From Chrysomallon squamiferum (taxonomy: Eukaryota > Animalia > Mollusca), in NCBI GenBank assembly GCA_012295275.1, contig CM022671.1, positions 16,926,001 to 16,990,000 on the forward strand: a stretch of DNA of 64,000 nucleotides, in the 5' to 3' direction. Positions 223 through 31,319 of this stretch are shown piece after piece. The notes beneath the pieces were generated by a model. It was not told the origin of the DNA. It did not search any database and worked only from the letters and a program-made list of their open reading frames with translations. Position 1 is the stretch's first letter, and each line of letters opens with the position of its first letter. Both the position numbers and the translations under genes were made by a program.

Positions 223-228
223 TTTATT
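223..228 (-). terminator. Candidate polyadenylation signal of polyprotein exon copy 1 (present in all five copies)
   Basis: AATAAA on the minus strand ~155 nt after the stop; another AATAAA overlaps the stop codon. The motif is common in AT-rich DNA, so it is weak evidence alone. Confidence 0.4.
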
Positions 229-381
229 TTGACATGTAACAATGTAACAATAAAATATTAAAATGTGCAAACACGTTGTTCTCCGACTCTAGCTGTCACT
301 TTGAACAACAACAACAAGAAAAATAATAAGCCTTTCTCGTAAAAACACGAAACGTTCGATTCAACCAGTTAGAAAGCGCAT

Positions 382-1287
382 TTATTTGGAACCTTTCTGC
401 CCTTCGTTTACCTTCGTTTCGTTGATCTTGTCTTCCAAATCTCGCGTTTTCTCGACAAACTGATCGTCGTTTGCGTGAGTTCGCTTCTCGTGCACTTTTC
501 TTTTGCTTTGACTGAAGAAGAACTTTTCCCTTGCGGATCTGTGCCACCATTTTATCTTCCTTTTCACGTGCGGTTTTCTCAGTTCGGAAATCTCGTCGAG
601 TTCTGGTTGACTGGATTTTTCAGTTAATTTCGGACTCTCAGAATGATTTGGTTGTGGGTCTTTCTTGTTACTGTTCTCGCTGTTACGTTTTGCGCCATTA
701 TTAGCAGTCGTTTGGAGATCGTCTTCCAGTCCTAACTCGGTCTCGGAATCTTCCTTACTTCTTTTTATATGTGTATGCTTATTATCATGTTTCCCATGTG
801 CTGGCTTCATATGTGGAAAACCATATCTTCTGGTCTTTTCATTTTCCCTCTTCGTACGTGATAATTCAGCTTCGTCCTTTCTTTTCACGCGCGATAATTC
901 AGCCTCGTCTCCTCTCTTCACGCGTGACAATTCAGCTTCGTCTCCTCTTTTCACGCGTGACAATTCAGCTTCGTCTACTCGTTTCACGCGTGACAGTTCA
1001 GCTTCGTCTCCTCTTTTAACGCGTGATAATTCAGCTTCGTCAGTTCAGCTTCTTTCTCCTCTTTTAATCGCGCGTGATAATTCAGCTTCTTTCCTTTCAA
1101 CGCGTGATGGGGCAATTTCGTCTCTTTTCACGCGCGATAATTCAGCTTCATTAATTCTCTTTACGCGTGATAATTCCTTTTCCTGGTCTCTCTTGACGCG
1201 AGTGAGTTCCAGAAAGGATTCATCTGATCGCTTCTCGCGCTGCAGTTCAGTCTCTAGATTAAGACTGGCTGGATGTAAAGGAATGGC
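382..1287 (-). pseudogene. Polyprotein terminal exon, copy 1 (frameshifted at ~1030-1070 in this sequence)
   Basis: Acceptor ttttattttatttttccag|GCC ATT CCT at 1287. The frame stops at 1045 (...RAIKRGERS*) and resumes in another frame to the stop at 382 (ORFs 1045..1314 and 382..987). The frameshift may be a consensus error. Confidence 0.75.
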
Positions 1288-2509
1288 CTGGAAAAATAAA
1301 ATAAAACACCCCACCTTTGATTAAAACAGAAACAGAAATAAAAACGAAATAATATTTATGATCCGCAGAATTCATTTACTGTATTGCAATTTCAATGTAA
1401 AGAGACAGAGAGAATAATAATAATTAAAAAAAAAACTAGAAAAAAAAAAAAAATAATAATAATAATAAATTTAAAAACAAAAATAATAATAAAAAAATAA
1501 CAATAAATAAAATAAGACTTTCAAAATATCGTACGTTACATAACACCCACAGATTGCTAGTCCAAGTATATTCCACAATAAATCAGCGTTTTTATTAAGA
1601 AAATCTATAACTGCAAAACTGAAATCTCTTTTGTTTTATTCAATTTACATCATCCACGGTGTAAATCCACAGCATTGCGATTGCACATTTTTTTTCTTTC
1701 TCTCAACTGGCTTCATCACTGATTGAATTTCTAAAGTAATATGAATAGTCTCTCTGCAAAATCTTATATAAATCACCGTGATCCATTCATTTTCTAATCT
1801 GAGTTGGCAGCCTCTCAGGAGAGGACTATTGACGCCTTAAATGAAAGTACGACCACACAAGGAAATGATGAATGACTGTTTCGTATTCATTATGCTAAAT
1901 TAAAATTCTTTGTAGAATCAGCTAAATAAGATATGTTGTGCTTGATATATATACCGATTATTCGAATAACTGTACGATAATGCAGGAATAGTTTGTAGGT
2001 GAAAAAAATGCGAAAATAAGGAAGAAATTTGTTGTTTTGTAAAATGCATCCTTTATCGGAATATATTATAGGTGAGGATGATGGAACAAAATACAATGTT
2101 TGTGATATACGTCCATAAAATAACGTAGCTGGAATACAGTGTGTATGAAAAGAATATTTTAATTTGTTTCGCTTTTTATTCGTGCAAAAACAACGGAAAA
2201 TATTACTGCAACATGAAAATGTTTCATTATTTCAATTACAAAAATGATTAAAATCAGGACTGAAATCAGGGGTCCATCTGTCTGTCTAGATTACAACATA
2301 AAACAATTAGATGTATTTCTAAATACTCTGAGTTTCAGTAACAGATTAATGAGAATTATTAGCATTAAAATAATGACAGATCAACAGTTAAATACTTTGT
2401 CTTTTGATAATTTCAGATAGCTTGAATTTACAATATTAGTAAAGAGAAGAAGACTGAAAGAAATATGTAGACAAAATGTAAGTTGTTTATATAGGAAATG
2501 ATATTTAAA

Positions 2510-2704
2510 AACGTATTTGTTATTGCTTTTGTTGTTGTTATTATTATTATTTTAAATTATTTAAATATTTATTATTATTTATTATTATTTGTAAATTTTA
2601 TTTGAATATTTATTATATTTTTATTCACCAATTACTGTATTTATTTTATTAATACTGCTGCTACTATTGCTGCTGCTGCTACTACTACTACTAACACCAC
2701 CACC

Positions 2705-2740
<36 letters not shown>

Positions 2741-2785
2741 GCTGCTGCTGCTATTGCTGCTGCTGCTACTACTACTACTACTTCT
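2510..2785. repeat. Compound (ATT)n and (ACC)n(ACT)n(GCT)n microsatellite inside each array unit
   Basis: Directly visible; length varies between units (~6905-7120, ~11205-11445, ~15585-15805, ~19930-20130). Confidence 0.9.
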
Positions 2786-3389
2786 ATCCTTTTATTTCTT
2801 ATTCGTTTCTTAGAATAATTATTAATCTATCACGCACGTGTTTGCGTTTTGAAACAATATCTGGATATCGTTTTAATTTTAAAATTTGTTTTTCTTATTA
2901 GTCAATACGTAGATAGATACCACGTTGTACTGAACTAGCACCTATAGCATCAGCTTTCCACAGCTTCTGAAAATTTTATTTGAATGCTGAATAAAATTTA
3001 CAGCATATTTTTGTGATACCCACTGGACAAAAATTTTGATATTTATCATTTTAATGTAACAGTATTTATTGATAGATGACAATAATTTTAATATCTTTTT
3101 AATAATAATTTTTATTTATTTTATTAACTTCAAAAGTTTTTCTCCAAGCCCACAATAATGTGTTTTCCCAGCCCTGGGAAGGTGAATATCAAATATCCTC
3201 TCATTGCTAATTAAAACAAAATAGAATGACACAAGTGGTTTATGTTTCTCATTGATTATGAGGACTTTAACCAAATGTGTTATATCATCATCAGTTATAA
3301 ATATGATATTAACTAAAATATATCTTTCTTTTATCTTGCAAATGAAATGTTATGTGATTTATTTTAACTATAATCTGTTTTAATTTCAG

Positions 3390-3490
3390 ACTTCCACTGG
3401 CCCAGTTCCTTATGTTGATACTGTTCTTATGACACAGACTGCAGCAAAATATAAATCTCGAAGAATGTCAAGAAGATGAATTTTAATAAA
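3390..3490 (+). other. Plus-strand terminal-exon-like segment repeated in each unit (also starting at 7729, 12054, 16416)
   Basis: Branch-like ttttaac and acceptor tgttttaatttcag|, then 29 codons (TSTGPVPYVDTVLMTQTAAKYKSRRMSRR*) in phase 0, then AATAAA at 3485-3490. Parent gene and true frame unknown. Confidence 0.45.
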
Positions 3491-4715
3491 AGGAATTTCT
3501 AATACTTGAAACTGAAGAAAAAAAAAAAAAAAAAAAACTGAAATAAATAAATAAAGTGAAATGAGTGAAATAAATAAAAATTTAAATTAAGAAAACAATT
3601 GTGTTTCTGTAGAAATTAAAGATTATTTTTTTAATATTTGATATATTGTCCATTTTGTTTTAAATTGTTGAGAAAGAATTCTAAACCTGCAAACAGTTTT
3701 AAGCATCTTGTCATTAAAATTTTGTATTTTATTGTTTATTTCTTCATTTTTATTTATTACATTTTATTTTTTTAAAGTTTCTTTTAAATTTAATTTTGAA
3801 GATTGTGTGTAAACGTTCTGGCCTGGTTCATCTTTATGTTTAGAGGATAAAAACTTCTTATTTCATTTTATTTAGAATTTCAAAAAGATTTACTTCAGGA
3901 TAAATTTGTGTTTCAAAAAAAACAAAAGTCTCAATTTTCAAAATTAAAGAGATGACTTTCTTTAGTTCCTTTCATTGGTAAACATCATCTTGCTACTGCT
4001 ATTCAGAGAGACTTGCCAGTATTTCCCGTTTCAAATAATTATTTGAAGAACTATGACTCGCATCTATTAATTGTTCATAACTGTATTTTGATACCATTAA
4101 ACAAATACTCATTATTTAATAACTTCACCAGGTCATTGCATTTAACAGACAGAACTACACTGACAAACTCTATCTTGTCCATCAGCACATAAACATTCAG
4201 CTGCAGTGACGCTCTGGTCATGCAGGTCACAGATATTACGGCTCGATGGCATTTCCCCAAATTTTCATCTCACTGCTGTTCCTATCAAGAGACAATTGCC
4301 TTGATAGGAGGAGAGCAGTAAACCCATTATTCTCACTAATCAACCCATTAACACTGCACTGAACAGAAAACCCGGGCTTCCGGACTTGTTAGCCAGGGCA
4401 GATGTTAATGTCAGATGAAAGTAAACGGATGATTGTGTTTGTATTAATAATGAAATCGATGAACAGCACTGTTTAGTTTTTGGGTAATGTAACTTTACAC
4501 AAAACTGGAAAACGCGAAGTAGTTTATAAAATGTCTGTTGTATCCAGACATTCCTTGTTTATTTTGACATGTAACAATGTAACAATAAAATATTAAAATG
4601 TGAAAATACGTTGTTCTCCGACTCTCGCTGTCACTTTGAACAACAACAACAACAAAAATAAGAAGTCTTTCTCGTAAAACACGAAACGTTCGATTCAACA
4701 AGTTAGAAAGCGCAT

Positions 4716-5669
4716 TTATTTGGAACTTTTCTGCCCTTCGTTTACCTTCGTTTCGTAGACCTTGTCTTCCAAATCGCGCGTTTTCTCGACAAACTGATCG
4801 CCGTTTGCGTGAGTTCGCTTCTCGTGCACATTTCTTTTGCTTTGACTGAGGAAGAACTTTTCCCTTGCGCGTTTCTCCCACCATCCCATCTTCCTTTTCA
4901 CGTGCGGTTTTCTCAGTTCGGAAATCTCGTCGAGTTCTGGTTGACTGGATTTTTTAGTTAATTTCGGACTCTCAGAATGATTTGGTTGTGGGTCTTTCTT
5001 GTTACTGTTCTCGCTGTTACGTTTTGCGCCATTATTAGCAGTCGTCTGGAGATCGTCTTCCAGTCCTAACTCGGTCTCGGAATCTTCCTTACTTCTTTTT
5101 ATATGTGTATGCTTATTATTATGTTTCCCATGTGCTGGATTCATATGTGGAAAAACATGTCTTCTGGTCTTTTCATTTTCCCTCTTCGTACGTGATAATT
5201 CAGCTTCGTTCTTTCTTTTCACGCGCGATAATTCAGCCTCGTCTCCTCTTTTGCGCGTGACAATTCAGCTTCGCCTCCTCTTCACACGCGTGACAATTCA
5301 GCTTCGTCTCCTCTTTTCACGCGTGACAATTCAGCTTCGTCTCCTTTTTCACGCGCGACAGTTCAGCTTCACGCGTGACAGTTCAGCTTCGTCTCCTCTT
5401 TTACGCGTGATAATTCAGCTTCTTTCCTTTCAAAGGGTTGTGGTGGAATTTCTCTTTTTACGCGTGATAATTCAGCTTCTTTCGCGTGAACGCGTGAATT
5501 CGTCTCTTTTCACGCGCGATAATTCAGCTTCATTAATTCTCTTTACGCGTGATAATTCCTTTTCCTGATCTCTCTTGACGCGAGTGAGTTCCAGAAAGGA
5601 TTCATCTGATCGCTTCTCGCGCTGCAGTTCAGTTTCTAGATTAAGACTGGCTGGATGTAAAGGAATGGC
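4716..5669 (-). pseudogene. Polyprotein terminal exon, copy 2 (several indels in the 33-bp repeat tract, ~5250-5500)
   Basis: Same acceptor at 5669, premature stop at 5472, C-terminal frame 4716..5222 intact. Repeat units are scrambled or 1 nt short. Confidence 0.75.
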
Positions 5670-5772
5670 CTGGAAAAAGAAAATAAAACACCCCACCTTT
5701 GATTAAAACAGAAACAGAAATAAAAACGAAATAATTATGATCCGCAGAATTTCAATGTAAAGAGACAGAGAG

Positions 5773-5806
<34 letters not shown>

Positions 5807-6911
5807 TTTAGAACAAAAAAACTTAAAAATACAAAAAATCATAAATTTAAAAACAAAATAATAATAAAAAATAACAATAAATAGAATAAGACTTTCAAAA
5901 TATCGTACGTTACATAACACCCACAGATTGCTAGTCCAAGTATATTCCACAATAAATCAGCGTTTTTATTAAGAAAATCTATAACTGCAAAACTGAAATC
6001 TCTTTTGTTTTATTCAGTTTACATCATCCACGGTGTAAATCCACAGCATTGCGATTGCACATTTTTTTCTTTCTCATAACTGGCTTCATCACTGACTGAA
6101 TTTCTAAAGTAATATGAATAGTCTCTCTGCAAAATCTTATATAAATCACCGTGATCCATTCATTTTCTAATCTGAGTTGGCAGCCTCTCAGGAGAGGACT
6201 ATTGACGCCTTAAATGAAAGTACGACCACACAAGGAAATGATGAACGACTGTTTCGTATTCATTATGCTAAATTAAAATTCTTTGTAGAATCAGCTAAAT
6301 AAGATATGTTGTGCTTGATATATATACCGATTATTCGAATAACTGTACGATAATGCAGGAATAGTTTGTAGGTGAAAAAAATGCGAAAATAAGGAAGAAA
6401 TTTGTTGTTTTGTAAAATGCATCCTTTATCGGAATATATTATAGGTGAGGATGATGGAACAAAATACAATGTTTGTGATATACGTCCATAAAATAACGTA
6501 GCTGGAACACAGTGTGTATGAAAAGAATATTTTTGTATTTCTTTCGCTTTTTATTCGTGCAAAAACAAACGGAAAAGATTACAGCAACATGAAAGTGTTT
6601 CATTATTTCAATTACAAAAACGATTAAAATCAGGACTGAAATCAGGGGTCCATCTGTCTGTCTAGATTACAACATAAAACAATTAGATGTATTTCTAAAT
6701 ACTTTGAGTTTCAGTAGCAGATTAATGAGAATTATTAGCATTAAAATAATGACAGATCAACAGTTAAATACTTTGTCTTTTGATAATTTCAGATAGCTTG
6801 AATTTACAATATTAGTAAAGAGAAGAAGACTGAAAGAAATATGTAGACAAAAATGTAAGTTGTTTATATAGGAAATGATATTTAAAAACGTATTTGTTAT
6901 TGCTTTTGTTG

Positions 6912-6952
<41 letters not shown>

Positions 6953-7037
6953 TTAAATTAATTTGAATATTTATTATATATTTATTCTTAATTACTGTAT
7001 TTATTTTATTAATACTACTACTACTAACACCACCACC

Positions 7038-7079
<42 letters not shown>

Positions 7080-9055
7080 GCTGCTGCTATTGCTGCTGCT
7101 GCTACTACTACTACTACTTCTATCGTTTTATTTCTTATTCGTTTCTTAGAATAATTATTAATCTATCACGCACGTGTTTGCGTTTTGAAACAGTATCTGG
7201 ATATCGTTTTAATTTTAAAATTTGTTTTTCTTATTAGTCAATACGTAGATAGATACCACGTTGTACTGAACTAGCACCTATAGCATCAGCTTTCCACAGC
7301 TTCTGGAAATTTTATTTGAATGCCGAATAAAATTTACAGCATATTTTTGTGATACCCACTGTACAAAAATTTAGATATTTATCATTTTAATGTAACAGTA
7401 TTTATTGATAGATGACAATAATTTTAATATCTTTTTAATAATAATTTTTATTTATTTTATTAACTTCAAAAGTTTTTTCTCCAAGCCCACAATAATGTGT
7501 TTTCTCCAGCCCCTGGGAAGGTGAATATCAAATATCCTCTCATTGCTAATTAAAACAAAATAGAATGACACAAGTGGTTTATGTTTCTCATTGATTATGA
7601 GGACTTTAACCAACTGTGTTATATCATCATCAGTTATAAATATGATATTAACTAAAATATATCTTTCTTTTATCTTGCAAATGAAATGTTATGTGATTTA
7701 TTTTAACTGTAATCTGTTTTAATTTCAGACTTCCACTGGCCCAGTTCCTTATGTTGATACTGTTCTTATGACACAGACTGCAGCAAAATATAAATCTCGA
7801 AGAATGTCAAGAAGATGAATTTTAATAAAAGAATTTCTAATACTTGAAACTGAAGAAAAAAATAAAAAATAAAACTGAAATAAATAAATAAAGTGAAATG
7901 AGTGAAATAAATAAAAATTTAAATTAAGAAAACAATTGTGTTTCTGTAAAAATTAAAGATTATTTTTTTAATATTTGATATATTGTCCATTTTGTTTTAA
8001 ATTGTTGAGAAAGAATTCTAAACCTGCAAACAGTTTTAAGCATCTTGTCATTAAAATTTTGTATTTTATTGTTTATTTCTTCATTTTTATTTATTACATT
8101 TTATTTTTTAAGTTTCTTTTAAATTTAATTTTGAAGATTGTGTGTAAACGTTCTGGCCTGGTTTATCTTTATGTTTAGAGGATAAAAACTTCTTATTTTC
8201 ATTTTATTTAGAATTTCAAAAAGATTTACTTCAGGATAAATTTGTGTTTCAAAAAGAACAAAAGTCTCAATTTTCAAAATTAAAGAGATGACTTTCTTTA
8301 GTTCCTTTCGTTGGTAAACATCATCTTGCTACTGCTACTCAGAGAGACTTGCCAGTATTTCCCGTTTCAAATAATTATTTCAAGAACTGTACGACTCGCA
8401 TCTATTAATTGTTCATAACTGTATTTTGATACCATTAAACAAATACTCATTATTTAATAACTTCACCAGGCCATTGCATTTAACAGACAGAACTACACTG
8501 ACAAACTCTATCTTGTCCATCAGCACATAAACATTCAGCTGCAGTGACGCTCTGGTCATGCAGGTCACAGATATTACGGCTCGATGGCATTTCCCCAAAT
8601 TTTCATCTCACTGCTGTTCCTATCAAGAGACAATTGCCTTGATAGGAGGAGAGCAGTAAACCCATTATTCTCACTAATCAACCCATTAACACTGCACTGA
8701 ACAGAAAACCCGGGCTTCCGGACTTGTTAGCCAGGGCAGATGTTAATGTCAGATGAAAGTAAACGGATGATTGTGTTTGTATTAATAATGAAATCGATGA
8801 ACAGCACTGTTTAGTTTTTGGGTAATGTAACTTTACACAAAACTGCAAAACGCGAAGTAGTTTATAAAATGTCTGTTGTATCCAGACATTCCTTGTTTAT
8901 TTTGACATGTAACAATGTAACAATAAAATATTAAAATGTGAAAATACGTTGTTCTCCGACTCTCGCTGTCACTTTGAACAACAACAACAACAAAAAATAA
9001 GAAGTCTTTCTCGTAAAAACACGAAACGTTCGATTCAACAAGTTAGAAAGCGCAT

Positions 9056-9970
9056 TTATTTGGAACTTTTCTGCCCTTCGTTTACCTTCGTTTCGTAGAC
9101 CTTGTCTTCCAAATCGCGCGTTTTCTCGACAAACTGATCGCCGTTTGCGTGAGTTCGCTTCTCGTGCACATTTCTTTTGCTTTGACTGAGGAAGAACTTT
9201 TCCCTTGCGCGTTTCTCCCACCATCCCATCTTCCTTTTCACGTGCGGTTTTCTCAGTTCGGAAATCTCGTCGAGTTCTGGTTGACTGGATTTTTTAGTTA
9301 ATTTCGGACTCTCAGAATGATTTGGTTGTGGGTCTTTCTTGTTACTGTTCTCGCTGTTTCGTTTTGCTCCATTATTAGCAGTCGTTTGGAGATCGTCTTC
9401 CAGTCCTAACTCGGTCTCGGAATCTTCCTTACTTCTTTTTATATGTGTATGCTTATTATCATGTTTCCCATGTGCTGGCTTCATATGTGGAAAACCATGT
9501 CTTCTGGTCTTTTCATTTTCCCTCTTCGTACGTGATAATTCAGCTTCGTCCTTTCTTTTCACGCGTGATACTTCAGCCTCGTCTCCTCTCTTCACGCGTG
9601 ACAATTCAGCTTCGTCTCCCCTTTTCACGCGTGACAATTCAGCTTCGTCTCCTCTTTTTACGCGCGATAATTCAGTTTCTTTCCTTTCAACGGGTGATGG
9701 TGCAATCTCGTCTCTTTTGACGCGTGACAATTCAGCTTCGTCTCCTCTTTTTACGCGTGATAATTCAGCTTCTTTCCTTTCAACGCGTGATGGTGCAATC
9801 TCGTCTCTTTTCACGCGTGACAATTCAGCTTCATTAATTCTCTTTACGCGTGATAATTCCTTTTCCTGATCTCTCTTGACGCGAGTGAGTTCCAGAAAGG
9901 ATTCATCTGATCGCTTCTCGCGCTGCAGTTCAGTCTCTAGATTAAGACTGGCTGGATGTAAAGGAATGGC
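9056..9970 (-). CDS. Polyprotein terminal exon, copy 3 (intact, 304 aa; 325 aa with leader exon): secreted multi-peptide precursor of unknown family
   Basis: Phase-0 acceptor ...ttccag|AIPLHPASLNLE at 9970 and an open frame to the stop at 9056. It has 11 R-x-K-R sites plus further KR/RR sites, with AATAAA in the downstream flank. Confidence 0.85.
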   Translation of the reverse strand, partial: AIPLHPASLNLETELQREKRSDESFLELTRVKRDQEKELSRVKRINEAELSRVKRDEIAPSRVERKEAELSRVKRGDEAELSRVKRDEIAPSPVERKETELSRVKRGDEAELSRVKRGDEAELSRVKRGDEAEVSRVKRKDEAELSRTKRENEKTRRHGFPHMKPAHGKHDNKHTHIKRSKEDSETELGLEDDLQTTANNGAKRNSENSNKKDPQPNHSESPKLTKKSSQPELDEISELRKPHVKRKMGWWEKRAREKFFLSQSKRNVHEKRTHANGDQFVEKTRDLEDKVYETKVNEGQKSSK

Positions 9971-11209
9971 CTGGAAAAATAAAATAAAACACCCCACCTT
10001 TGATTAAAACAGAAACAGAAATAAAAACGAAATAATATTTATGATCCGCAGAATTCATTTACTGTATTGCAATTTCAATGTAAAGAGACAGAGAGAATAA
10101 TAATAATTAAAAAAAAAACTAGAAAAAAAAAAAAATAATAATAATAATAATAAATTTAAAAACAAAAATAATAATAAAAAAATAACAATAAATAAAATAA
10201 GACTTTCAAAATATCGTACGTTACATAACACCCACAGATTGCTAGTCCAAGTATATTCCACAATAAATCAGCGTTTTTATTAAGAAAAAACTGAAATCTC
10301 TTTTGTTTTATTCAATTTACATCATGCACAGTGTAAATCCACAGCATTGCGATTGCAAATTTTTTTTCTTTCTCTCAACTGGCTTCATCACTGATTGAAT
10401 TTCTAAAGTAATATGAATAGTCTCTGTGCAAAATCTTATATAAATCACCGTGATCCATTCATTTTCTAATCTGAGTTGGCAGCCTCTCGGGAGAGGACTA
10501 TTGACGCCTTAAATGAAAGTACGACCACACGAGGAAATGATGAATGACTGTTTCGTATTCATTATGCTAAATTAAAATTCTTTGTAGAATCAGCTAAATA
10601 AGATATGTTGTGCTTGATATATATACCGATTATTCGAATAACTGTACGATAATGCAGGAATAGTTTGTAGGTGAAAAAAATGCGAAAATAAGGAAGAAAT
10701 TTGTTGTTTTGTAAAATGCATCCTTTATCGGAATATATTATAGGTGAGGATGATGGAACAAAATACAATGTTTGTGATATACGTCCATAAAATAACGTAG
10801 CTGGAATACAGTGTGTATGAAAAGAATATTTTTGTATTTCTTTCGCTTTTTATTCGTGCAAAAACAAACGGAAAAGATTACAGCAACATGAAAGTGTTTC
10901 ATTATTTCAATTACAAAAATGATTAAAATCAGGACTGAAATCAGGGGTCCATCTGTCTGTCTAGATTACAACATAAAACAATTAGATGTATTTCTAAATA
11001 CTTTGAGTTTCAGTAGCAGATTAATGAGAATTATTAGCATTAAAATAATGACAGATCAACAGTTAAATACTTTGTCTTTTGATAATTTCAGATAGCTTGA
11101 ATTTACAATATTAGTAAAGAGAAGAAGACTGAAAGAAATATGTAGACAAAATGTAAGTTGTTTATATAGGAAATGATATTTAAAAACGTATTTGTTATTG
11201 CTTTTGTTG

Positions 11210-11265
<56 letters not shown>

Positions 11266-11353
11266 TTAAATTAATTTGAATATTTATTATATATTTATTC
11301 TTAATTACTGTATTTATTTTATTAATACTACTACTACTAACACCACCACCACC

Positions 11354-11413
<60 letters not shown>

Positions 11414-14363: not shown

Positions 14364-14466
14364 CTGGAAAAAGAAAATAAAACACCCCACCTTTGATTAA
14401 AACAGAAACAGAAATAAAAACGAAATAATTATGATCCGCAGAATTTCAATGTAAAGAGACAGAGAG

Positions 14467-14500
<34 letters not shown>

Positions 14501-15589: not shown

Positions 15590-15639
<50 letters not shown>

Positions 15640-15727
15640 TTAAATTAATTTGAATATTTATTATATATTTATTCTTAATTACTGTATTTATTTTATTAAT
15701 ACTACTACTACTAACACCACCACCACC

Positions 15728-15766
<39 letters not shown>

Positions 15767-17743
15767 GCTGCTGCTATTGCTGCTGCTGCTACTACTACTA
15801 CTACTTCTATCGTTTTATTTCTTATTCGTTTCTTAGAATAATTATTAATCTATCACGCACGTGTTTGCGTTTTGAAACAGTATCTGGATATCGTTTTAAT
15901 TTTAAAATTTGTTTTTCTTATTAGTCAATACGTAGATAGATACCACGTTGTACTGAACTAGCACCTATAGCATAAGCTTTCCACAGCTTCTGAAAATTTT
16001 ATTTGAATGCCGAATAAAATTTACAGCATATTTTTGTGATACCCACTGTACAAAAATTTAGATATTTATCATTTTAATGTAACAGTATTTATTGATAGAT
16101 GACAATAATTTTAATATCTTTTTAATAATAATTTTTATTTATTTTATTAACTTCAAAAGTTTTTTCTCCAAGCCCACAATAATGTGTTTTCTCCAGCCCC
16201 TGGGAAGGTAAATATCAAATATCCTCTCACTGCTAATTAAAACAAAATAGAATGGCACAAGTGGTTTATGTTTCTCATTGATTATGAGGACTTTAACCAA
16301 ATGTGTTATATCATCATCAGTTATAAATATGATATTAACTAAAATATATCTTTCTTTTATTTTGCAAATGAAATGTTATGTGATTTATTTTAACTATAAT
16401 CTGTTTTAATTTCAGACTTCCACTGGCCCAGTTCCTTATGTTGATACTGTTCTTATGACACAGACTGCAGCAAAATATAAATCTCGAAGAATGTCAAGAA
16501 GATGAATTTTAATAAAGGAATTTCTAATACTTGAAACTGAAGAAAAAAAATAAAAAATAAAACTGAAATAAATAAATAAAGTGAAATGAGTGAAATAAAT
16601 AAAAATTTAAATTAAGAAAACAATTGTGTTTCTGTAGAAATTAAAGATTATTTTTTTAATATTTGATATATTGTCCATTTTGTTTTAAATTGTTGAGAAA
16701 GAATTCTAAACCTGCAAACAGTTTTAAGCATCGTGTCATTAAAATTTTGTATTTTATTGTTTATTTCTTCATTTTTATTTATTACATTTTATTTTTTAAG
16801 TTTCTTTTAAATTTAATTTTGAAGATTGTGTGTAAACGTTCTGGCCTGGTTCATCTTTATGTTTAGAGGATAAAAACTTCTTATTTCATTTTATTTAGAA
16901 TTTCAAAAAGATTTACTTCAGGATAAATTTGTGTTTCAAAAAAAACAAAAGTCTCAATTTTCAAAATTAAAGAGATGACTTTCTTTAGTTCCTTTCATTG
17001 GTAAACAACATCTTGCTACTGCTACTCAGAGAGACTTGCCAGTATTTCCCGTTTCAAATAATTATTTCAAGAACTGTACGACTCGCATCTATTAATTGTT
17101 CATAACTGTATTTTGATACCATTAAACAAATACTCATTATTTAATAACTTCCACCGGGTCATTGTATTTAACAGACAGAACTACACTGACAAACTCTATC
17201 TTGTCCATCAGCACATAAACATTCAGCTGCAGTGACGCTCTGGTCATGCAGGTCACAGATATTACGGCTCGATGGCATTTCCCCAAATTTTCATCTCACT
17301 GCTGTTCCTATCAAGAGACAATTGCCTTGATAGGAGGAGACCAGTAAACCCATTATTCTCACTAACCAACCTATTAACACCGCACTGAACAGAAAATCCG
17401 GGCTTCCGGACTGGTTAGCCAGGGCAGATGTTAATGTCAGATGAAAGTAAACGGATGATTGTGTTTGTATTAATAATGAAATCGATGAATAGCACTGTTT
17501 AGTTTTTGGGTAATGTAACTTTACACAAAACTGCAAAACGCGAAGTAATTTATAAAATGTCTGTTGTATCCAGACATTCCTTGTTTATTTTGACATGTAA
17601 CAATGTAACAATAAAATATTAAAATGTGCAAACACGTTGTTCTCCGACTCTCGCTGTCACTTTGAACAACAACAACAACAAAAAATAAGAAGTCTTTCTC
17701 GTAAAAACACGAAACGTTCGATTCAACCAGTTAGAAAGCGCAT

Positions 17744-18711
17744 TTATTTGGAACCTTTCTGCCCTTCGTTCACCTTCGTTTCGTTGATCTTGTCTTCCAA
17801 ATCGCGCGTTTTCTCGACAAACTGATCGCCGTTTGCGTGAGTTCGCTTCTCGTGCACATTTCTTTTGCTTTGACTGAGGAAGAACTTTTCCCTTGCGCGT
17901 TTCTCCCACCATCCCATCTTCCTTTTCACGTGCGGTTTTCTCAGTTCGGAAATCTCGTCGAGTTCTGGTTGACTGGATTTTTTAGTTAATTTCGGACTCT
18001 CAGAATGATTTGGTTGTGGGTCTTTCTTGTTACTGTTCTCGCTGTTACGTTTTGCGCCATTATTAGCAGTCGTTTGGAGATCGTCTTCCAGTTCTAACTC
18101 GGTCTCGGAAGCTTCCTTACTTCTTTTTATATGTGTATGCTTATTACCATGTTTCCCATGTGCTGGCTTCATATGTGGAAAACCATGTCTTCTGGTCTTT
18201 TCATTTTCCCTCTTCGTACGTGATAATTCAGCTTCGTTCTTTCTTTTCACGCGCGATAATTCAGCCTCGTCTCCTCTTTTCACGCGTGACAATTCAGCTT
18301 CGCCTCCTCTTTTCACGCGTGACAATTCAGCTTCGTCTCCTCTTTTCACGCGTGACAATTCAGCTTCGTCTCCTCTTTTCACGCGCGACAGTTCAGCTTC
18401 GTCTACTCTTTTCACGCGTGACAGTTCAGCTTCGTCTCCTCTTTTAACGCGTGATAATTCAGCTTCTTTCCTTACATAAATTCGTCTCTTTTTACGCGTG
18501 ATAATTCAGCTTCTTTCCTTTCAACGCGTGATGGGGCAATTTCGTCTCTTTTCACGCGTGACAATTCAGCTTCATTAATTCTCTTTACGCGTGATAATTC
18601 CTTTTCCTGATCTCTCTTGGCGCGAGTGAGTTCCAGAAAGGATTCATCTGATCGCTTCTCGCGCTGCAGTTCAGTTTCTAGATTAAGACTGGCTGGATGT
18701 AAAGGAATGGC
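17744..18711 (-). pseudogene. Polyprotein terminal exon, copy 5 (closest to the leader exon; frameshift/stop at ~18472)
   Basis: Acceptor at 18711. Copy 4 reads GAC GAG ATT CCA CCA CAA CCC TTT GTA AGG; this copy reads GAC GAA TTT AT GTA AGG (net -13 nt), giving ...RVKRDEFM*. The downstream frame 17744..18415 is intact. Confidence 0.75.
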
Positions 18712-18822
18712 CTGGAAAAATAAAATAAAACACCCCACCTTTGATTAAAACAGAAACAGAAATAAAAACGAAATAATAATTATGATCCGCAGAATTTCAA
18801 TTTAAAGAGACAGATTTCAATG

Positions 18823-18854
<32 letters not shown>

Positions 18855-19926
18855 TTTAGAACAAAAATACATAAAATAATAAATTTAAAAACAAAATAAT
18901 AATAAAAAAATAACAATAAATAGAATAAGACTTTCAAAATATCGTACGTTACATAACACCCACAGATTGCTAGTCCAAGTATATTCCACAATAAATCAGC
19001 GTTTTTATTAAGAAAAACTGAAATCTCTTTTGTTTTATTCAGTTTACATCATGCACAGTGTAAATCCACAGCATTGCGATTGCAAATTTTTTTTTCTCTC
19101 TCAACTGGCTTCATCACTGACTGAATTTCTAAAGTAATATGAATAGTCTCTGTGCAAAATCTTATATAAATCACCGTGATCCATTCATTTTCTAATCTGA
19201 GTTGGCAGCCTCTCAGGAGAGGACTATTGACGCCTTAAATGAAAGTACGACCACACAAGGAAATGATGAATGACTGTTTCGTATTCATTATGCTAAATTA
19301 AAATTCTTTGTAGAATCAGCTAAATTAGATATGTTGTGCTTGATATGTGTACCGATTATTCGAATAACTGTACGATAATGCAGGAATAGTTTGTAGGTGA
19401 AAAAATAAAAGCGAATATAATGAAATTTGTTGTTTTGTAAAATGCATCCTTTATCGGAATATATTATAGGTGAGGATGATGGAACAAAATACACTGTTTG
19501 TGATATACACCCATAAAATAACGTAGCCGGAATACAGTGTGTATGAAAAGAATATTTTAATTTTTTTCGCTTTTTATTCGTGCAAAAACAACGGAAAAGA
19601 TTACAGCAACATGAAAATGTTTCATTATTTCAATTACAAAAACGATTAAAATCAGGACTGAAATCAGGGGTCCATCTGTCTGTCTAGATTACAACATAAA
19701 ACAATTAGATGTATTTCTAAATACTCTGAGTTTCAGTAGCACATTAATGAGAATTATTAGCATTAAAATAATGACAGATCAACAGTTAGATACTTTGTCT
19801 TTTGATAATTTCAGATAGCTTGAATTTACAATATTAGTAAAGAGAAGAAGATTTAAAGAAATATGTAGACAAAAATGTAAGTTGTTTATATAGGAAATGA
19901 TATTTAAAAAGGTATTTGTTATTGCT

Positions 19927-19966
<40 letters not shown>

Positions 19967-20582
19967 TAAATTTATTTAAATATTTATTATATATTTATTC
20001 TTAATTACTGTATTTATTTTATTAATACCACTACTACTACCACCACCATCAGGACCACCACCACCACCACCACTACTACTACTGCTGCTGCTTGCTGCTG
20101 CTGCTACTACTACTACTACTACTACTACTTTTTATTTCTTATTCGTTTCGTAGAATAATTATTAATCTATCACGCACGTGTTTGCGTTTTGAAACAATAT
20201 CTGGATATCGTTTTAATTTTAAAATTTGTTTTTCTTATTACGTCAATACGTAGATAGATACCACGTTGTACTGAACTAGCACCTATAAACATCAGATTTC
20301 CACAACTTCTCTTTGTTGTCGTTATTCAACCACTGGTTTGGTTTCCTAGTAACATTAAACTCTGATTAGTTCTGCTGTCTGAGGTATTTCCTTACGTAGA
20401 TCGGCGCCATTTCAGAAAGTAGTCACCAAGTAACCATGTCAGAACTTGCCATTGTTCGATATTGATTTCGCTGGAGGACGTTTATTTGTATTGTGTAATT
20501 GCTAACGAACCAGATTTGTCCCAGGTGACCACTGGACGATTTATAATTATCTGCACACGAGTGAGATAATGATTTCACACAT

Positions 20583-20622
<40 letters not shown>

Positions 20623-21062
20623 CATACGTCTCTATGGAAGTGTTCATTATATAAAGACATGCGTATATATGTTTCTATGCACATACGTACACAAATAAAA
20701 TTGCACATACAAACATACTGTATATTCCAACAAATATATACGCATGCACTGATGAACGCACGCACGCGCACACACGCACATACACATAGCCATCATCTTC
20801 TGAAATGTAGGCTACTTCTAACTGGGGACTGGAAACCTAATAAATCGAATAAATCTAATATACCTGTCGTCTAATGGGTATAACTCGTCCTTCTAGACAG
20901 ATATTAACACCACTTAAATGTTAGGAAATTAATAATTTATTGTATAATCTGATTACTGTTACCTCTGTAGCTCGTGGATTTTAAGTGTATATGTAGACCC
21001 CATATAGTAATAGTGAGAATGTATGTATTATGTATAAAAAGCGTGTGTGTTTTCTCTCTGTG

Positions 21063-21068
<6 letters not shown>

Positions 21069-21158
<90 letters not shown>
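21069..21158. repeat. (GA)n microsatellite
   Basis: Perfect dinucleotide run of ~90 bp. Confidence 0.95.
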
Positions 21159-21161
<3 letters not shown>

Positions 21162-21571
21162 TAGCGTCTTAATATAACTTTAGAAATTATAGGAACTAAG
21201 AATTATTTTCTGAATTGTACTGTATTGTATTGTATTGTCGTTTATTGTTTTGTTTTCTATTGCTTTGCATTATATTTAACCTTCGATATTGGCAATGGCT
21301 ATCAGAAGCGTTTCATGCTCAAAAACTTTATTGATTTTTGTTGTTATGATCGTATTTTATGAAACAGTCATAAATTCATCGCTTAATCTTCATGCGAGAA
21401 AAATGACAAATTGCATTTTTAAGAATTGTAACTATAACAACATTTATAATAATAAAATAGAAATATTCTGATTATATTCTAAAATTATTCTTAAAGATTC
21501 TTGACATTTTTTATTATATGAAAGAGTCACGAGAAAATACATTTGGCTGGTTTAAGTAGGTTGGTAGATAC

Positions 21572-21603
<32 letters not shown>

Positions 21604-22307
21604 GTATATGTATATATATATATATATAAAAATTTAAATTTATATATATATTTTACATTTGTATATATAAATCATTATGTATAAATATATAAAAACAGAC
21701 AGGCTCCAACATACAATACACTTTTAGAATGTTTTTATGACATATACATACATATTTAATTTCTTTTATGATATATTTTCTATGTAGACAGGTGTAAATG
21801 ACATTGATATCATTGTTTTCCTTCTTTTCCTGAATTTATAATGAAGCGATGCTAAAAGATATATTGCACTGAAACATCATTTTAACATTTGGTTTCAACT
21901 GTAGCGTTATTTTATTTATTTATTTATTTTATTTTATTTTATTATTATTATTATTATTATTATTTTAATTTCAAGGACTTCTAAGTTCAAGTAATATCCT
22001 TTGTTTAAAATTTTCATTCAAACTAAAAAATCTATATAACTGTGATTAAGCGTTTGCTTAAATGTACACCTTCAGAGTAAGCCCATACTGCTTTCTGTTT
22101 AAACCAGTGGCTAAATACTGTAGTAAATTATGAATCTTTATCCATGGTTAATGAATGTAAAAGACACCTCGCTGCTAACATAAACTGTAGCGGATTTCTT
22201 TTAAAAACAGCTATAGTAAATCTGTATCAGTAACTACAAATGTAATCATGCAAGATTACTTAACTTCTGACAGAAAAAACTAATCAGTTAGGTTTTGTTA
22301 AATAATT

Positions 22308-22391
<84 letters not shown>

Positions 22392-24253
22392 TTTTAATTT
22401 TTTTTTTTTTTTTTTTTTTTTTGCTAGTAGATGGAAGGAAGAACAAATATTGTTTTTATCTTTCTTTCTTTTCTTCTATTAGCTTGTATTTTAGAGGGTT
22501 CTTTATTATTATTATTTTTTTAATTAATTAATTAATTTATTATTATTATTATTATTTTGAATAGCATGCAAACAAAGTCAGTAACAGTTGTAGCATTATA
22601 TTAAATAACTTGGAGTCACTTGGCACTGAGACATTTAAGGAAAAAAACCCACACAGGTCACAGCATCACGTCAGTTAGTGAATTAAGCCAGGAAGACAAA
22701 TCTGCTGTCTGAAATACATTTATTACAAAAAAACTTTCTATAATATAGCTGAAAAAAACAACCGAGAACCTCGGCTAAAAATTAAAGGACATAAAAACGT
22801 TACCTTTAAGAAAAAGGATTGTACTACTTTCAGGGAAGGACTGACAATGCTGCCAGTTTCGAATTATATGCATTTGTTTTCTTTTATCTTTTGTTATTTT
22901 CCTATTTCTGTCATTCTTTGTTTTGTTAGAATTAAAAAATAAAAAAGTAAAGACGGAAGAAAATAAATAAGTAAATAAATAAATAATAATAATAAATGAA
23001 AAAAAAAAACAATAATAAAAAAAAACAAAAAAAACAACTCAACAACAACAAATCACTTTGTTGAATTGCAAATTAACGACTTCGCACCAAAGGTTACCCT
23101 GTGGTTCTTTTGGTTTGTTTTGTTAAATTCTTCACTTTTTATTTTATTTTTAGTAAATATGCCAATAATTTAAGAGCTGTAGAACAAAGTGTTTCAGTAG
23201 GTGAACAGGTGTAGAGCGTGTGTCTAGTACTGAAACGCTTCCGTTCCTAAATGTCAATGACGTTAAATCACATTCTAATGGCCGGTTAACCGCGCCATTA
23301 TCTTGTCACACGGAAACGCTTTTCTGGCGGAAACCGTACAGCGACAGAAAGAATGCAGAAAGCAGAATTAAGTGAGACAAACTGACTGACCGACTGACAT
23401 ACACTCATTTGTGAAAACCACAACATCAACATGATCAACAACAATAATAATACTAATGCAACAACAATAATACTAATGCAACAACAACGACAATAATACT
23501 AATGCGTATATATCGTATGATCCGTCATTACTTAAGATATATATATATATTATAATGATGATAAACAATACTCATCATCATCATTATAATCTCACTGGAT
23601 AAAAATGTAGTAGAAAAATCATGGAATAAAAAAGAAAAAAATAAATGAAAAAAAGAACACGGTACTAACTTATTTCCATTGTTAAACCAGTAAATAAATC
23701 ATATTTCATTAATAATAATAATGATGATGATGATGATGATGATGATGATGTTGATAAATTAATAATACAAATTAACAATCAGTGATAACTGAAAACAGAA
23801 GCATTATATCTTTGATACTTTATCGAAGCTCTGAGTCTTTCTTACAGTTCTGAAAACCCAAGTTCTATATCGGAAACTCGTTTAGGACAGAAATAATGCA
23901 AATTTTATAAGTCTGTGTTATTAGCGGATTTCATCCTATAGCATCAGAGGCTCAGAACTACGTATACGGAAATAAGTCTAGCGAATTTAATTTTATCAGA
24001 TTCAGTTTCATGATCTTTTTGCACGTAACTGTTGAAAGCATTTCCCGTCTTAAAATGACAATATATATTTAATGATTTTCATTAAAGTGTATTTGTGTGA
24101 GAATAATAATAATAATAAAAAGATACAATATGTTGTTTATTTATAAACTATTGTAGCTGTTATTATTAATTTTTGGGGGCATATGTGTTTATAAGTGATG
24201 TGATATAGTCCATTAAAAAATCCCCCAAAAGTAAAAAAATACCCCCAAAATAT

Positions 24254-24292
<39 letters not shown>

Positions 24293-24642
24293 GAGTTTGT
24301 GTCTGTGTATATATGTATCGGAAAAACAACAAAATAAATAACATAAAACGTATTTAAAAGCATCTTCATTTCATATCAAGTTACGTAAGTGTAAGTGTCT
24401 GGTAACCTATACGACTGCTGTTTCAGCTCTCTCCTGTTTTACAGGCTCTCTGAAGTGACACCTGGGACATTATTAACGAGTCATTATTTTCTCTCTGTGA
24501 CCGGGTGTTATTAATCAACATGCCATTTAGTATCAGTTTTGATATATAGTTCATTTCGTCTGTTAAAAATCAGCAAATGAAATATTACAGTCATAAACTA
24601 GAGCATGCATATACCTGAAATGATTGAAATGGCTGCGAAGGT

Positions 24643-24780
24643 GTATGTATGTATGTATGTATGTATGTATGTATGTATGTATGTATGTATGTATGTATGT
24701 ATGTATGTTTGTACGTATGTATGCATGTATGCATAGGTGTATGTGTCTGTATGTTTGCATGTATGTATGAATGCATGTAT
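24643..24780. repeat. (TATG)n microsatellite with degenerate tail
   Basis: Directly visible tetranucleotide run. Confidence 0.9.
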
Positions 24781-26061
24781 CTGTGTCTATCTCTCTGACT
24801 GTATATCTGTGTATATGTATACCTTTTATTTTTATGAGTTTTTTTTTTTTTTTAAATTAAGGAGAATAATGAAAAAATGATGGTGAAATTAAGTCATAGA
24901 ACATTTGTCAGCTCAGTGTATTTCAAAATATCGTGAAATTCCACAACAAGCAAAAACAAACAACAAAAAAACACAAACAAACAAACACAACAAAAACCCA
25001 GTCAATTAAGTTTTCTCTCTAGACAAAACTTTTAACATGGATAATTTATTTCTACTTATTGTTTTAAACATTTTTTTTTTTTTTCCAAAAATGCGTTTGT
25101 TTTTAACACTCTTCGAAGCTAAAATTAAATATATTGTTTGGAAGATTAACAATAAACTATAATTTCCATATAATTTCCATGAGAAAATAATTTAAACATC
25201 TGTTACGTTTTTCTCCAGAAATGCAGAAAAAATGGTGTTGGGCTTTTAGTGTTTTGCAGAGAAAAGAATATCAATAACGTTTCATCATGCTGAAGCAAAC
25301 AGGGACTACGTGTAAATGTGCTTTCAAAGTACTGTTTGCATTTCAACAATTCTCGCAATTTTTATAACAATGATCTCTATCACCGAACTATGAGGTGACA
25401 AAGCTTTTTCAACACAAATACGAGAAAAGCGTTATGTTCTATCATAATCATATTCACGTCGCATAAAACATTTTAACAGAAAACCCATGTCATGGTTTCC
25501 ACTGCAAATTAGATTCTCTTGTCCAGTGTGAAACTAGTTACTAGAGCAAAAATCGTTTAACCTACTAATATTTCAACTCGTGCTGGGAGGACAGATTGAT
25601 TGACAAAGCTTGTAAGTGTGGTAGGAACGTGGATCTAATCCAAAAGCGGATTTTGTTTTTTCCCCTCTGAAGTTTGAACAAAGAGAGGGAAGAGGATGGA
25701 TGTTTTCAACTTTTTTTTATTAATTAATTTACCTGCGACATTAACATTTCAACCATAAATAGTATTGTTTATACCTTCTTTTTAAATTAAATTTTTTTTT
25801 TTTTTTTTTTTGTTTTTATGTTCTTTCTTTCCGGAATTTTATTTTATTTTTTATTTTTTTTTTTCTCTTTAATTTTAGAACTCCCACTTTAAACATTAAA
25901 CCGTAATCCATGGGTATAATTTATAAAATATAACTAATTATAAAAATGTTATATAAATGAATAGAGTATTTAGTTAATCTGTAATAAATATAAACAAGAT
26001 AGATACAAAAAAAATTAATGTTAAATATGTGTAAATGAGTGTATGTGTTTGTGTGTTGTCT

Positions 26062-26093
<32 letters not shown>

Positions 26094-26764
26094 TCAGTGA
26101 AGATTTTGTTCAGATTTTCTGTTATGAACTGGTTCTCAGCTTTCTGAGACTGCTGCGTAATTCATCGATGAATCCCATGATATTGCTATTCATATTATTG
26201 AAAATATTATATTTTATTTTTTAAACAAAAATGCTACCTTTGTATATATGTGTCTCTGTATGTATGTGGATGTTGACTGAATGTGTGTTCGTGTCTGTGT
26301 GTGTGTCTGTCTGTCTCTCAGAGCTGACTGTGCATTTGCCTGAGTGTAGAAACATGACCATTAAAGATCGTCAAAGACCTTTAACACAAGCTGCCCATGA
26401 TTTATTTACTACCAAGGGAAATAAGAAATGTCAAATGGTCTCAAGAAATATGTCGTCATATCCGCGAAGAACGGAATAACGTTTTCAGATTAGATATTTA
26501 GCACACGCTGCTGTCGTCAGTCGGCAATTCCGTTTGGAGTAAATCAACGTAAGTACCTGCATCGAGGGCTGGGACGTTCTCCCTCGGGTTAAGACAGATT
26601 TATATTTTCAGTTGTTTGTGATGAAGCGTGAAACAGAATTATTAGACGTTGGTATTACAATATGATCATTATTTTTTACAATCTATACCACTATTTTTAT
26701 TTTTATTTTTGTTTTTAATGTTGTGGTTTTTTTTTGGGGGGGGGGCTGGTTGGGGCGGTTTGTA

Positions 26765-26808
<44 letters not shown>

Positions 26809-27789
26809 TTTTTATTTGACTTTCATCAGTTCGGTATCGTTATATATGAAATAACATTTTATTAATTAATAATAAACAAACTAGCTTAAACATAACAAAC
26901 AAACAAACAAATAATTTTAAAATAAAAAAATCGTTCCTAAAAATGTTTCCAGTTGAAAAGATGTGTGTGTGTATATGTGTGTGTGGGTATGCGTGTGTTG
27001 TTGTGTGCGTGTATTCGTGTGTGCGCGCGTCTTTCTATCTCTTTATTTGTGTGTGTACATACTGGTTGATTACACACAGTGAAAATATAAACGAACACAA
27101 TGAAAAATCTGTATATAAATATCGCTGATACAAAAAGCTCATTTGATTACAGAGATAAAGGCGACCCAGCTGTTGTGATGATCAGAGTGAAAGTGTCCTT
27201 GATGAAATATATATATATATGTATATATATTAAGTAATGATGGATCATACGATATGTACGGATTAGTATTATAACAACAGAGATATACGTTACAGGAGTG
27301 ATTTTTGGTTTTTATTCTTCGCAGAAGTGATTTTTTTTGTTGTTTTTTCCAGAGTTACATTACACGTAAAAATCAATTATAATACATTTCATTTGTGAAA
27401 ATAAATATTATAATAAATGAAAAATGGATAAAGAATTTTGTTGGATAAATAAAACTTTTAGTAAAAATACTGAAACGACATTTGTAAAAATAATTTGTTT
27501 TCATTAGTTCATTCATGATTTTTCTCTCGCTTGATCTCTTCCATTTCGACACTTTCCATAATTCCGTTTTCGTTTTGTTTGGTCTGGGCAGCTGGTACAG
27601 AACTGGTACAGAACTGGTACAAACGACACGACTTATTATTCCTAACAATCTTTAGTCATTTACGATCAACCAAATAACAATAACCAAATGATAACCAAAT
27701 TGAAGAAATAACGTATTAAAAATCAGAAAAAAAAATAAAATAATAATAATGATCTGATAACGTAATCTAAAAAAATTAAAACAACTCAC

Positions 27790-27852
27790 CTGAACATTAA
27801 TCACTGCCCAGAGAAAAATGAACTGTAAAAAGATAGCGACGAGAAACTTCAT
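27790..27852 (-). CDS. Signal-peptide (leader) exon MKFLVAIFLQFIFLWAVINVQ, probable exon 1 of the polyprotein gene
   Basis: ATG at 27852 (aaagacATG), 21 codons with a basic n-region and hydrophobic h-region, and a consensus phase-0 donor CAG|gtgagt. Joining to AIPLHP completes a V-Q-A|IP signal peptidase site (-3/-1 rule). The link to the array exons is inferred. Confidence 0.8.
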
Positions 27853-31258: not shown

Positions 31259-31319
31259 TCAATTAATTGTTTAATACTGGTTTTAGTATTTCTCGTTTCA
31301 GAATTTACCTCTTATTGCA

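What the first reader, a model, noticed from the sequence alone, without database searches (positions are those of the whole stretch)
382..27852. One signal-peptide exon upstream of a bank of at least five variable polyprotein last exons: a candidate cassette-switching secreted-peptide system
Seen: the 4.3-kb duplication covers only the 3' part of the gene (intron tail, acceptor, coding exon, stop, AATAAA). I found no ATG-initiated signal exon in any unit. The single leader exon (27852-27790, MKFLVAIFLQFIFLWAVINVQ|gtgagt) lies outside the array, and its phase matches all five acceptors (18711, 14363, 9970, 5669, 1287), giving ...INVQ-A|IPLHP. Known: constant 5' exons with mutually exclusive variable 3' exons occur in Drosophila lola and mod(mdg4), the mirror image of UGT1A and clustered protocadherins. 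Inference: one promoter and leader could produce several precursors by alternative last-exon choice. The nearest copy is frameshifted, so a full-length product would require skipping to copy 4 or 3.
Basis: partly seen in the sequence, partly recalled or inferred. Interest (0 to 1): 0.88.

Follow-up and report, generated by a model that had tools for sequence, protein, structure and literature searches.

The report
Snail neuropeptide gene with copied tail
A snail gene, likely for a known kind of nerve-peptide precursor (LXRX), has its last coding exon copied at least five times in a row; assembled transcripts join the single first exon to a sequence closest to the nearest copy, so the other copies are likely mostly silent spares and not a switching system.

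Summary
The anatomy is real. Five head-to-tail 4.35-kb units each hold an intron tail, acceptor, coding exon and AATAAA, and one signal-peptide exon lies outside them. Contigs of two runs (one sample) join that leader directly to the acceptor.

The protein is a likely LXRX proneuropeptide. A profile built without the window's, P0001's or P0002's sequences scores copy 4 at 85 bits, against at most -1.8 for 500 shuffles. One profile member holds 5 of 7 published oyster LXRX peptides.

The switching argument fails at its key step. The main spliced path is closest to the nearest copy (2 of 31 variable sites differ, against 9-20 for the others). Spliced contigs also skip the 47 bases that frameshift that copy, so skipping to copy 4 or 3 is not required. 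The copies barely vary, are mosaics, and 3 of 5 are broken as assembled.

Best reading: a recent partial tandem duplication whose distal exons lie behind the first poly(A) signal and are likely mostly silent. Distal use is not excluded: one run shows a second, copy-4-like tract at about 1:1, either an allele or a distal copy.

The parts
27790..27852 (-). Coding part of the leader exon: 21 codons of a predicted signal peptide, phase-0 donor
   Evidence: loose ends of spliced contigs map uniquely to 27793 onward
20311..27789 (-). Single-copy part of the intron; absent from the spliced contigs
15992..20310 (-). Unit U5 (nearest copy): intron tail, last exon, poly(A) signal, 3' flank
17744..18711 (-). 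U5 coding exon; early stop at 18474-18472 as assembled; closest match to the main spliced path
18447..18493 (-). 47 bases that shift U5's frame; resemble a shortened form of U4's 60-base repeat unit; skipped in contigs of X1 and X3
17584..17589 (-). First AATAAA, followed by a T/GT-rich stretch; predicted poly(A) signal, same in all five units
11629..15991 (-). Unit U4
13383..14363 (-). U4 coding exon, open, 326 codons, 13 LxRx-KR units
7305..11628 (-). Unit U3
9056..9970 (-). U3 coding exon, open, 304 codons, 10 LxRx-KR units
2969..7304 (-). Unit U2
4716..5669 (-). U2 coding exon, several frameshifts in the repeat tract, first stop after 65 codons; unit has 4 private single-base deletions
1..2968 (-). 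Unit U1, cut by the window edge; the array may continue
382..1287 (-). U1 coding exon, stop at 1047-1045 in the repeat tract
536..553 (-). Cluster of 8 U1-private substitutions in 18 bases that alters the MGWWEKR motif shared with G. aegis

Best explanation
This is a gene with two coding exons, likely an LXRX-family neuropeptide precursor, whose last exon has been copied in tandem at least five times without its first exon, and the distal copies are likely mostly silent. Shown: the leader splices to the acceptor; the main spliced path is closest to the nearest copy; spliced contigs skip the 47 bases that frameshift it. Inferred steps: (1) One duplication copied intron tail, last exon and 3' flank, and unequal crossing-over or gene conversion then multiplied and mixed the units. 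(2) The transcript meets the first acceptor and the first poly(A) signal and is usually cut there, so the later units are rarely reached. (3) The precursor enters the secretory path and is cut at KR into about a dozen acidic 9-18 residue peptides ending in L-x-R-x, plus basic tail peptides. (4) The frameshift in the assembled nearest copy is likely a consensus error between repeat-length variants, or an allele of the assembled animal. The distal units would act as a pool of sequence for exchange, not as selectable cassettes.
For: Splice: 2 of 4 runs have a contig ending at 18714 whose loose end maps once in the window, at 27793. Copy: the X3 main path differs from U5 at 2 of 31 variable sites, against U4 9, U3 9, U2 11 and U1 20; it has the U5 letter at 4 of 4 covered U5-private sites, while the laid paths of the unspliced runs X5 and X7 carry distal letters at 18111 and 18093. 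Frame: the 47-base skip makes the exon 921 bases, a multiple of 3. Every unit has the same acceptor and AATAAA, so no sequence feature found would favour a distal one. Exact complementary matches between the unique intron and the unit intron were no longer than in 100 shuffles (longest 11 bases; shuffles 10-17). Mosaic units: 303 of 561 informative site pairs conflict, and 17 of 33 neighbouring sites share a split against 4.8 in shuffles. U5 and U1 against the other copies show pN close to pS (small counts). Family.
Against: X3 holds a second sequence type at 18495-18592 with three listed copy-4 letters (4 other letters in all), at depth 26.6 against 25.5, and its long contig ends at 17789 beside a site that separates U5/U1 from U4/U3/U2. 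This could be copy 4 in use with single-letter differences collapsed by the assembler. X1, coded as the same sample, shows only the first type. The X1 path has a U1-like letter at 18409 and U3/U1 letters at 18676, so position in the array cannot be read from letters with certainty. Contigs drop rare variants, the two spliced runs are one sample, the tool guessed them as DNA (I infer RNA from the splice), and tissue is unknown. U4 and U3 are still open, and U4/U3/U2 pairs show pN below pS on 0-4 synonymous changes.
Confidence: 0.62

Rival explanations
1. Alternative last-exon choice: the leader is spliced to distal copies at a meaningful rate, possibly by cell type, giving precursors with different repeat numbers and tail peptides.
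For: Second, copy-4-like tract in X3 at about 1:1 and absent from X1. U4 and U3 open, with intact acceptors and AATAAA. A shared signal exon with alternative peptide exons is known for the FMRFamide gene of Lymnaea, Helix and Haliotis (PMC4208409, passages).
Against: A 1:1 ratio is what two alleles give. The shared X3 contigs have the non-U4 letter at all 9 covered sites where the path and U4 differ, although the copy-4-like type is not the rarer one. No pairing element above chance. The products would hardly differ: 1-12 amino-acid changes in 202 non-repeat codons among U5-U2. The U1 motif was listed in none of the 4 runs laid.
Confidence: 0.2
2. The array is wholly or largely an assembly artefact: haplotypes or noisy long reads laid end to end.
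For: 3 of 5 repeat tracts are garbled, U2 has 4 private single-base deletions, and copies differ by only 0-5%. The unit junction was not tested with reads. X7 contigs could fit one locus with two alleles.
Against: The same junction occurs 4 times at the same base, with the same three substitutions against U5 just inside it in U4 and U3 and two of them in all four. Five distinct haplotypes share 14- and 19-base indels in different pairings. X5 has two types at 17700-17834 at depth 7.3 and 25.5, unlike 1:1 (rough binomial p 0.001; the tool warns that depth is no copy number). A wrong number of units remains possible.
Confidence: 0.12
3. Each unit is expressed on its own, from an unseen first exon or by trans-splicing to the leader as in mod(mdg4).
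For: Trans-splicing to variable terminal exons is reported for mod(mdg4) and lola (PMC3228551 passages; listing).
Against: No leader-like exon with a strong donor in any unit. The only loose ends listed at the acceptor were the known leader. All units are on one strand in order, so cis-splicing suffices.
Confidence: 0.04

Closest known systems
LXRX proneuropeptide (Platynereis, oyster Cragi-LXRX, mussels, phoronids; PMC3890597, PMC8398477, PMC6425005)
   Same: Signal peptide, repeated acidic peptides ending L-x-R-x before KR, basic tail; 85 bits against a profile of 14 database hits that include oyster and mussel proteins.
   Different: More regular 11-residue repeats, a less basic tail (net +9 against +21 to +34), and an MGWWEKR motif seen only here and in P0001, P0002, P0004 and P0005. 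The 9 adjacent LXRX-like sequences I read in the PMC6425005 supplement include no gastropod.
FMRFamide gene of Lymnaea, Helix and Haliotis (PMC4208409)
   Same: Gastropod neuropeptide gene with one shared signal-peptide exon upstream of peptide-coding exons.
   Different: There the alternative transcripts are shown, encode different peptide sets, and in Lymnaea are mutually exclusive by cell. Here the copies are 95-100% alike and only nearest-copy-like use is supported.
3' tandem cassette clusters such as Drosophila PGRP-LC and CG42235 (PMC6191721)
   Same: [quoted passage not shown]
   Different: Those cassettes are diverged, conserved across species and shown to be used, some through docking-selector pairing. 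None of that is shown here.
lola and mod(mdg4)
   Same: Constant 5' exon(s) with many 3' exons.
   Different: Reported as trans-spliced, with many expressed isoforms; no sign of that here.

Membership tests
LXRX proneuropeptide | N-terminal signal peptide | tested here: met
   Hydrophobic 21-codon leader, aligned to the G. aegis N-terminus and spliced to the exon. SignalP itself was not run.
LXRX proneuropeptide | Repeated peptides ending L-x-R-x followed by KR | tested here: met
   13 units in U4 and 10 in U3, against 5-9 in P0064, P0022 and P0059
LXRX proneuropeptide | Sequence similarity to published members | tested here: met
   U4 85.1 bits, best of 500 shuffles -1.8, reversed -24.4; HMMER bias term high (61.9) because of the repeats. 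P0064 holds 5 of 7 oyster LXRX peptides, read by eye. P0059 closely resembles the Bathymodiolus sequence listed next to Platynereis LXRX, by eye.
LXRX proneuropeptide | Basic, His/Lys/Arg-rich C-terminal region | tested here: inconclusive
   Net +9 in the last third, against +21 to +34 in four relatives
LXRX proneuropeptide | Expression in nerve tissue and release of the peptides | not testable with these tools
   Tissue of the runs is not on record. Oyster LXRX is reported almost strictly in visceral ganglia.
Alternative 3' terminal-exon cluster | Duplicated last exons, each with acceptor, matching phase and poly(A) signal | tested here: met
Alternative 3' terminal-exon cluster | Two or more cassettes used in transcripts | tested here: inconclusive
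   Main path nearest-copy-like; a second type in 1 of 2 spliced runs is an allele or a distal copy
Alternative 3' terminal-exon cluster | Cassettes diverged and kept intact by selection | tested here: not met
   3 of 5 broken as assembled (may be assembly error); pN close to pS for U5 and U1; mosaic sharing
Alternative 3' terminal-exon cluster | Docking-selector RNA pairing (some members only) | tested here: not met
   Exact matches only, no G-U pairs: longest 11 bases, shuffles 10-17
Alternative 3' terminal-exon cluster | Array conserved in related species | not testable with these tools
   No animal genomes could be searched; one G. aegis protein was found, locus not seen

The most novel reading that the evidence does not exclude
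A gastropod LXRX neuropeptide gene is turning into a cassette gene: a very young tandem array of last exons is already used alternatively (the copy-4-like tract seen in one run and not another being tissue-specific choice), exon exchange between units reshuffles peptide number, and the farthest copy has gained a new Trp-rich cationic tail peptide.
Probability: 0.15. Interest if true: 0.6.

Novelty: new member of a known kind. Interest (0 to 1): 0.3.

Why it matters
As it stands, it places an unannotated snail protein (its relative is labelled 'trichohyalin-like') in the LXRX neuropeptide family, for which physiological reports are scarce (PMC8398477). It also shows how a partial tandem duplication plus a repeat-tract frameshift can mimic a cassette system. 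If distal copies prove to be used, the locus would be a very young example of how shared-leader neuropeptide genes such as FMRFamide arise, with copies still 95-100% alike, and it could be tested directly by long-read cDNA.

Tried and rejected
Pfam gave 0 families for 2 of 2 open exons. The ESM Atlas top hit, apidaecin-type at 0.77, is under the 0.9 bar and was dropped; a second Atlas query did not complete. The JGI metagenome scan found 188 pattern matches and 0 confirmed loci. A shell-protein idea got no support from passages of PMC11871041. Oyster GWE peptides have a different layout, with N-terminal G/AWE peptides and a cysteine-rich end, so that was rejected. PMC5996578 main text has no LXRX. 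Shares of sampled words (0.65-0.70 for X1-X4) cannot separate copy types: the predicted ceilings were 0.78, 0.67 and 0.57, and U4 alone gives 0.62. X1 and X3 have no cover at the exon's 3' end; a hole proves nothing. No template for the U1 substitution cluster was found in the window within 3 mismatches. An acceptor pattern count was not validated on the true acceptor and is not used. RGD motifs in the repeats are absent from P0002 and are treated as chance. Three look-ups of earlier findings returned nothing. No fold was run; the Atlas model of the relative has pTM 0.17.
Full report
1. Observation. Self-alignment shows five head-to-tail units of about 4.35 kb on the minus strand, from 20310 to the window edge. 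Each holds about 1.6 kb of intron tail, an identical acceptor, a 0.9-1.0 kb coding exon, AATAAA and flank. The four junctions fall at the same base. Pairwise differences are 1.7-5.4% in the intron tail, 0.2-4.4% in the exon's C-terminal part and 0.3-1.5% in the far flank. Only U4 and U3 are open. U5, U2 and U1 stop early within the 33-base repeat tract. Of 160 ATG-to-GT candidates on the minus strand, only 27852-27790 has a perfect donor and a hydrophobic core. No whole genome is held, so the far end of the array is unseen.

2. The leader is the real first coding exon. The best homologue is Gigantopelta aegis XP_041348496.1 (44% identity over 89% of the query). Its N-terminus aligns with the leader (12 of 23 identical, E 2e-4 for the pair). 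The organism is therefore likely a snail close to G. aegis; the species was not determined. Four runs were laid as contigs on 17700-18740. In X1 and X3, coded as one sample, a contig stops at 18714. Its loose end (146 and 167 letters, 30 shown) maps once in the window, at 27793. X5 and X7 run on into the intron. I infer that X1 and X3 are RNA, although the tool guessed DNA.

3. Which copy is spliced. At 31 covered variable sites the X3 main path differs from U5 at 2, U4 at 9, U3 at 9, U2 at 11 and U1 at 20. It has the U5 letter at all 4 covered U5-private sites (18620, 18147, 18111, 18093). The laid paths of X5 and X7 have distal letters at 18111 and 18093. Contigs of X1 and X3 skip 47 bases (listed as 18446 to 18494), which brings the exon to 921 bases, a multiple of three. 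The skipped piece looks like a shortened form of U4's 60-base repeat unit. The assembled frameshift is likely a consensus error between repeat-length variants, or an allele of the assembled animal (inference).

4. Evidence against my reading. X3 has a second type at 18495-18592 with copy-4 letters at 18562, 18559 and 18541, at depth 26.6 against 25.5. Its long contig ends beside 17788, a site that splits U5/U1 from U4/U3/U2. X1 shows only the first type. Two alleles of the nearest unit fit the 1:1 ratio and the non-U4 letters in the shared contigs. Use of copy 4, with single-letter differences collapsed by the assembler, also fits. The spliced paths carry letters of U3 and U1 (18676, 18238, 18409) and one found in no copy (18553), and X7 shows the RAKR letter as its only laid path. 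Letters from this assembly therefore cannot fix array position in other samples. Contigs drop rare variants, so low-level distal use would be missed.

5. Is the array real? For: four identical junctions, five haplotypes sharing long indels in different pairings, and two types in X5 at 7.3 against 25.5 (rough p 0.001 against 1:1, with the tool's warning that depth is no copy number). Against: garbled repeat tracts, 4 private single-base deletions in U2, and X7 contigs that one heterozygous locus could explain. The junction was not tested with reads. I put the array, whatever its exact number, at about 0.85. The units are mosaics: 303 of 561 informative pairs conflict, and 17 of 33 neighbours share a split against 4.8 in 20,000 shuffles (three simple-repeat or repeat-tract stretches and the flank beyond 17362 were left out). 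Exchange between units or polishing error could both cause this.

6. What the protein is. Pfam has no family for it. Profile searches returned signal-peptide proteins with L-x-R-x-KR repeats from Mytilus, Solemya, Saccostrea and unnamed sources. P0064 contains 5 of the 7 peptides assigned by mass spectrometry to oyster LXRX (by eye). P0059 closely resembles the Bathymodiolus sequence listed next to Platynereis LXRX (by eye). A profile of 14 such hits, leaving out the window, P0001 and P0002, scores U4 at 85.1 bits and U3 at 71.9; the best of 500 shuffles is -1.8 (bias term high). Cutting at KR would release about a dozen acidic peptides ending in ELSRV or similar (inference), like the Platynereis peptide ending ELSRT found by mass spectrometry. 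LXRX is described as a lophotrochozoan family, almost confined to visceral ganglia in oyster and with few physiological reports.

7. How variable is the bank? Among U5-U2 the 202 non-repeat codons differ by 1-10 non-synonymous changes, and the MGWWEKR motif is the same. pN is close to pS for most pairs involving U5 or U1, and below pS among U4/U3/U2 on very few changes. U1 has 8 of its 15 private changes within 18 bases (0 of 200,000 shuffles reach this), altering the motif shared with G. aegis. A single complex mutation, exchange with an unseen copy, selection or error could each explain it. It was listed in none of the 4 runs.

8. Mechanism. Shown: leader-to-acceptor splice, nearest-copy-like main path, skip of the frameshifting bases. 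Inferred: cleavage at the first poly(A) signal keeps the distal units mostly silent. All units share the same acceptor and signal, and no pairing element beat chance, so nothing found would steer splicing past the first. PMC6191721 notes that early termination may favour the first 3' cassette.

9. Comparison and novelty. The protein is a new member of LXRX. [quoted passage not shown] I found no paper on this locus. 'LXRX' with 'neuropeptide' gave 5 papers. A motif search gave 20 papers, and the 15 listed had no ELSRVKR or MGWWE. Architecture searches gave nothing on it. The library lacks most subscription papers.

10. Papers seen. Passages only: PMC4208409, PMC6191721, PMC3228551, PMC8557429, PMC5996578, PMC11871041. 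Passages plus supplement rows or parts: PMC8398477, PMC6425005 (files cut when stored; one part of 400 read), PMC3890597 (5 files not searched). Unread supplement parts may list gastropod LXRX. All others were seen as search listings only.

11. Verdict. Real anatomy, known peptide family, switching not shown and its main argument refuted. Interest 0.3; the cassette reading has probability about 0.15-0.2.

Noticed in passing
window 31287-36703 (+): Exons of a pyridoxal-phosphate enzyme (Pfam PALP, E 3.9e-9 for 36413-36700), running away from the leader; 31287-31601 may be an earlier exon.
   Followed up: no
window 43863-53440 (-): Exons with PDZ matches and a weak harmonin-homology match (CCM2_C, E 0.005). 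A whirlin/PDZD7-like gene is my recalled guess, from no call.
   Followed up: no
P0013 (XP_021358062.1, Mizuhopecten yessoensis): A 776-residue peroxidase-like protein begins with a signal peptide and ELSRDKR-type repeats like those here: either a portable pro-piece or a fused gene model.
   Followed up: partly
P0022 and P0053: Mytilus trossulus has two near-identical LXRX-like loci, both listed with a contig of the same length, so duplication of this gene may recur.
   Followed up: no
P0002, P0004, P0005: Three near-identical unnamed relatives on different contigs lack a signal peptide and start at an internal Met, as a call of the last exon alone would.
   Followed up: no
window 29063-29768: About 600 bases of degenerate AAT/AAC trinucleotide repeat upstream of the leader.
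   Followed up: no
window 15992-17361 against U4: U5 and U4 far flanks differ at only 4 of 1369 sites, while their intron tails differ at 72 of 1585: a recent exchange or a polishing effect.
   Followed up: partly
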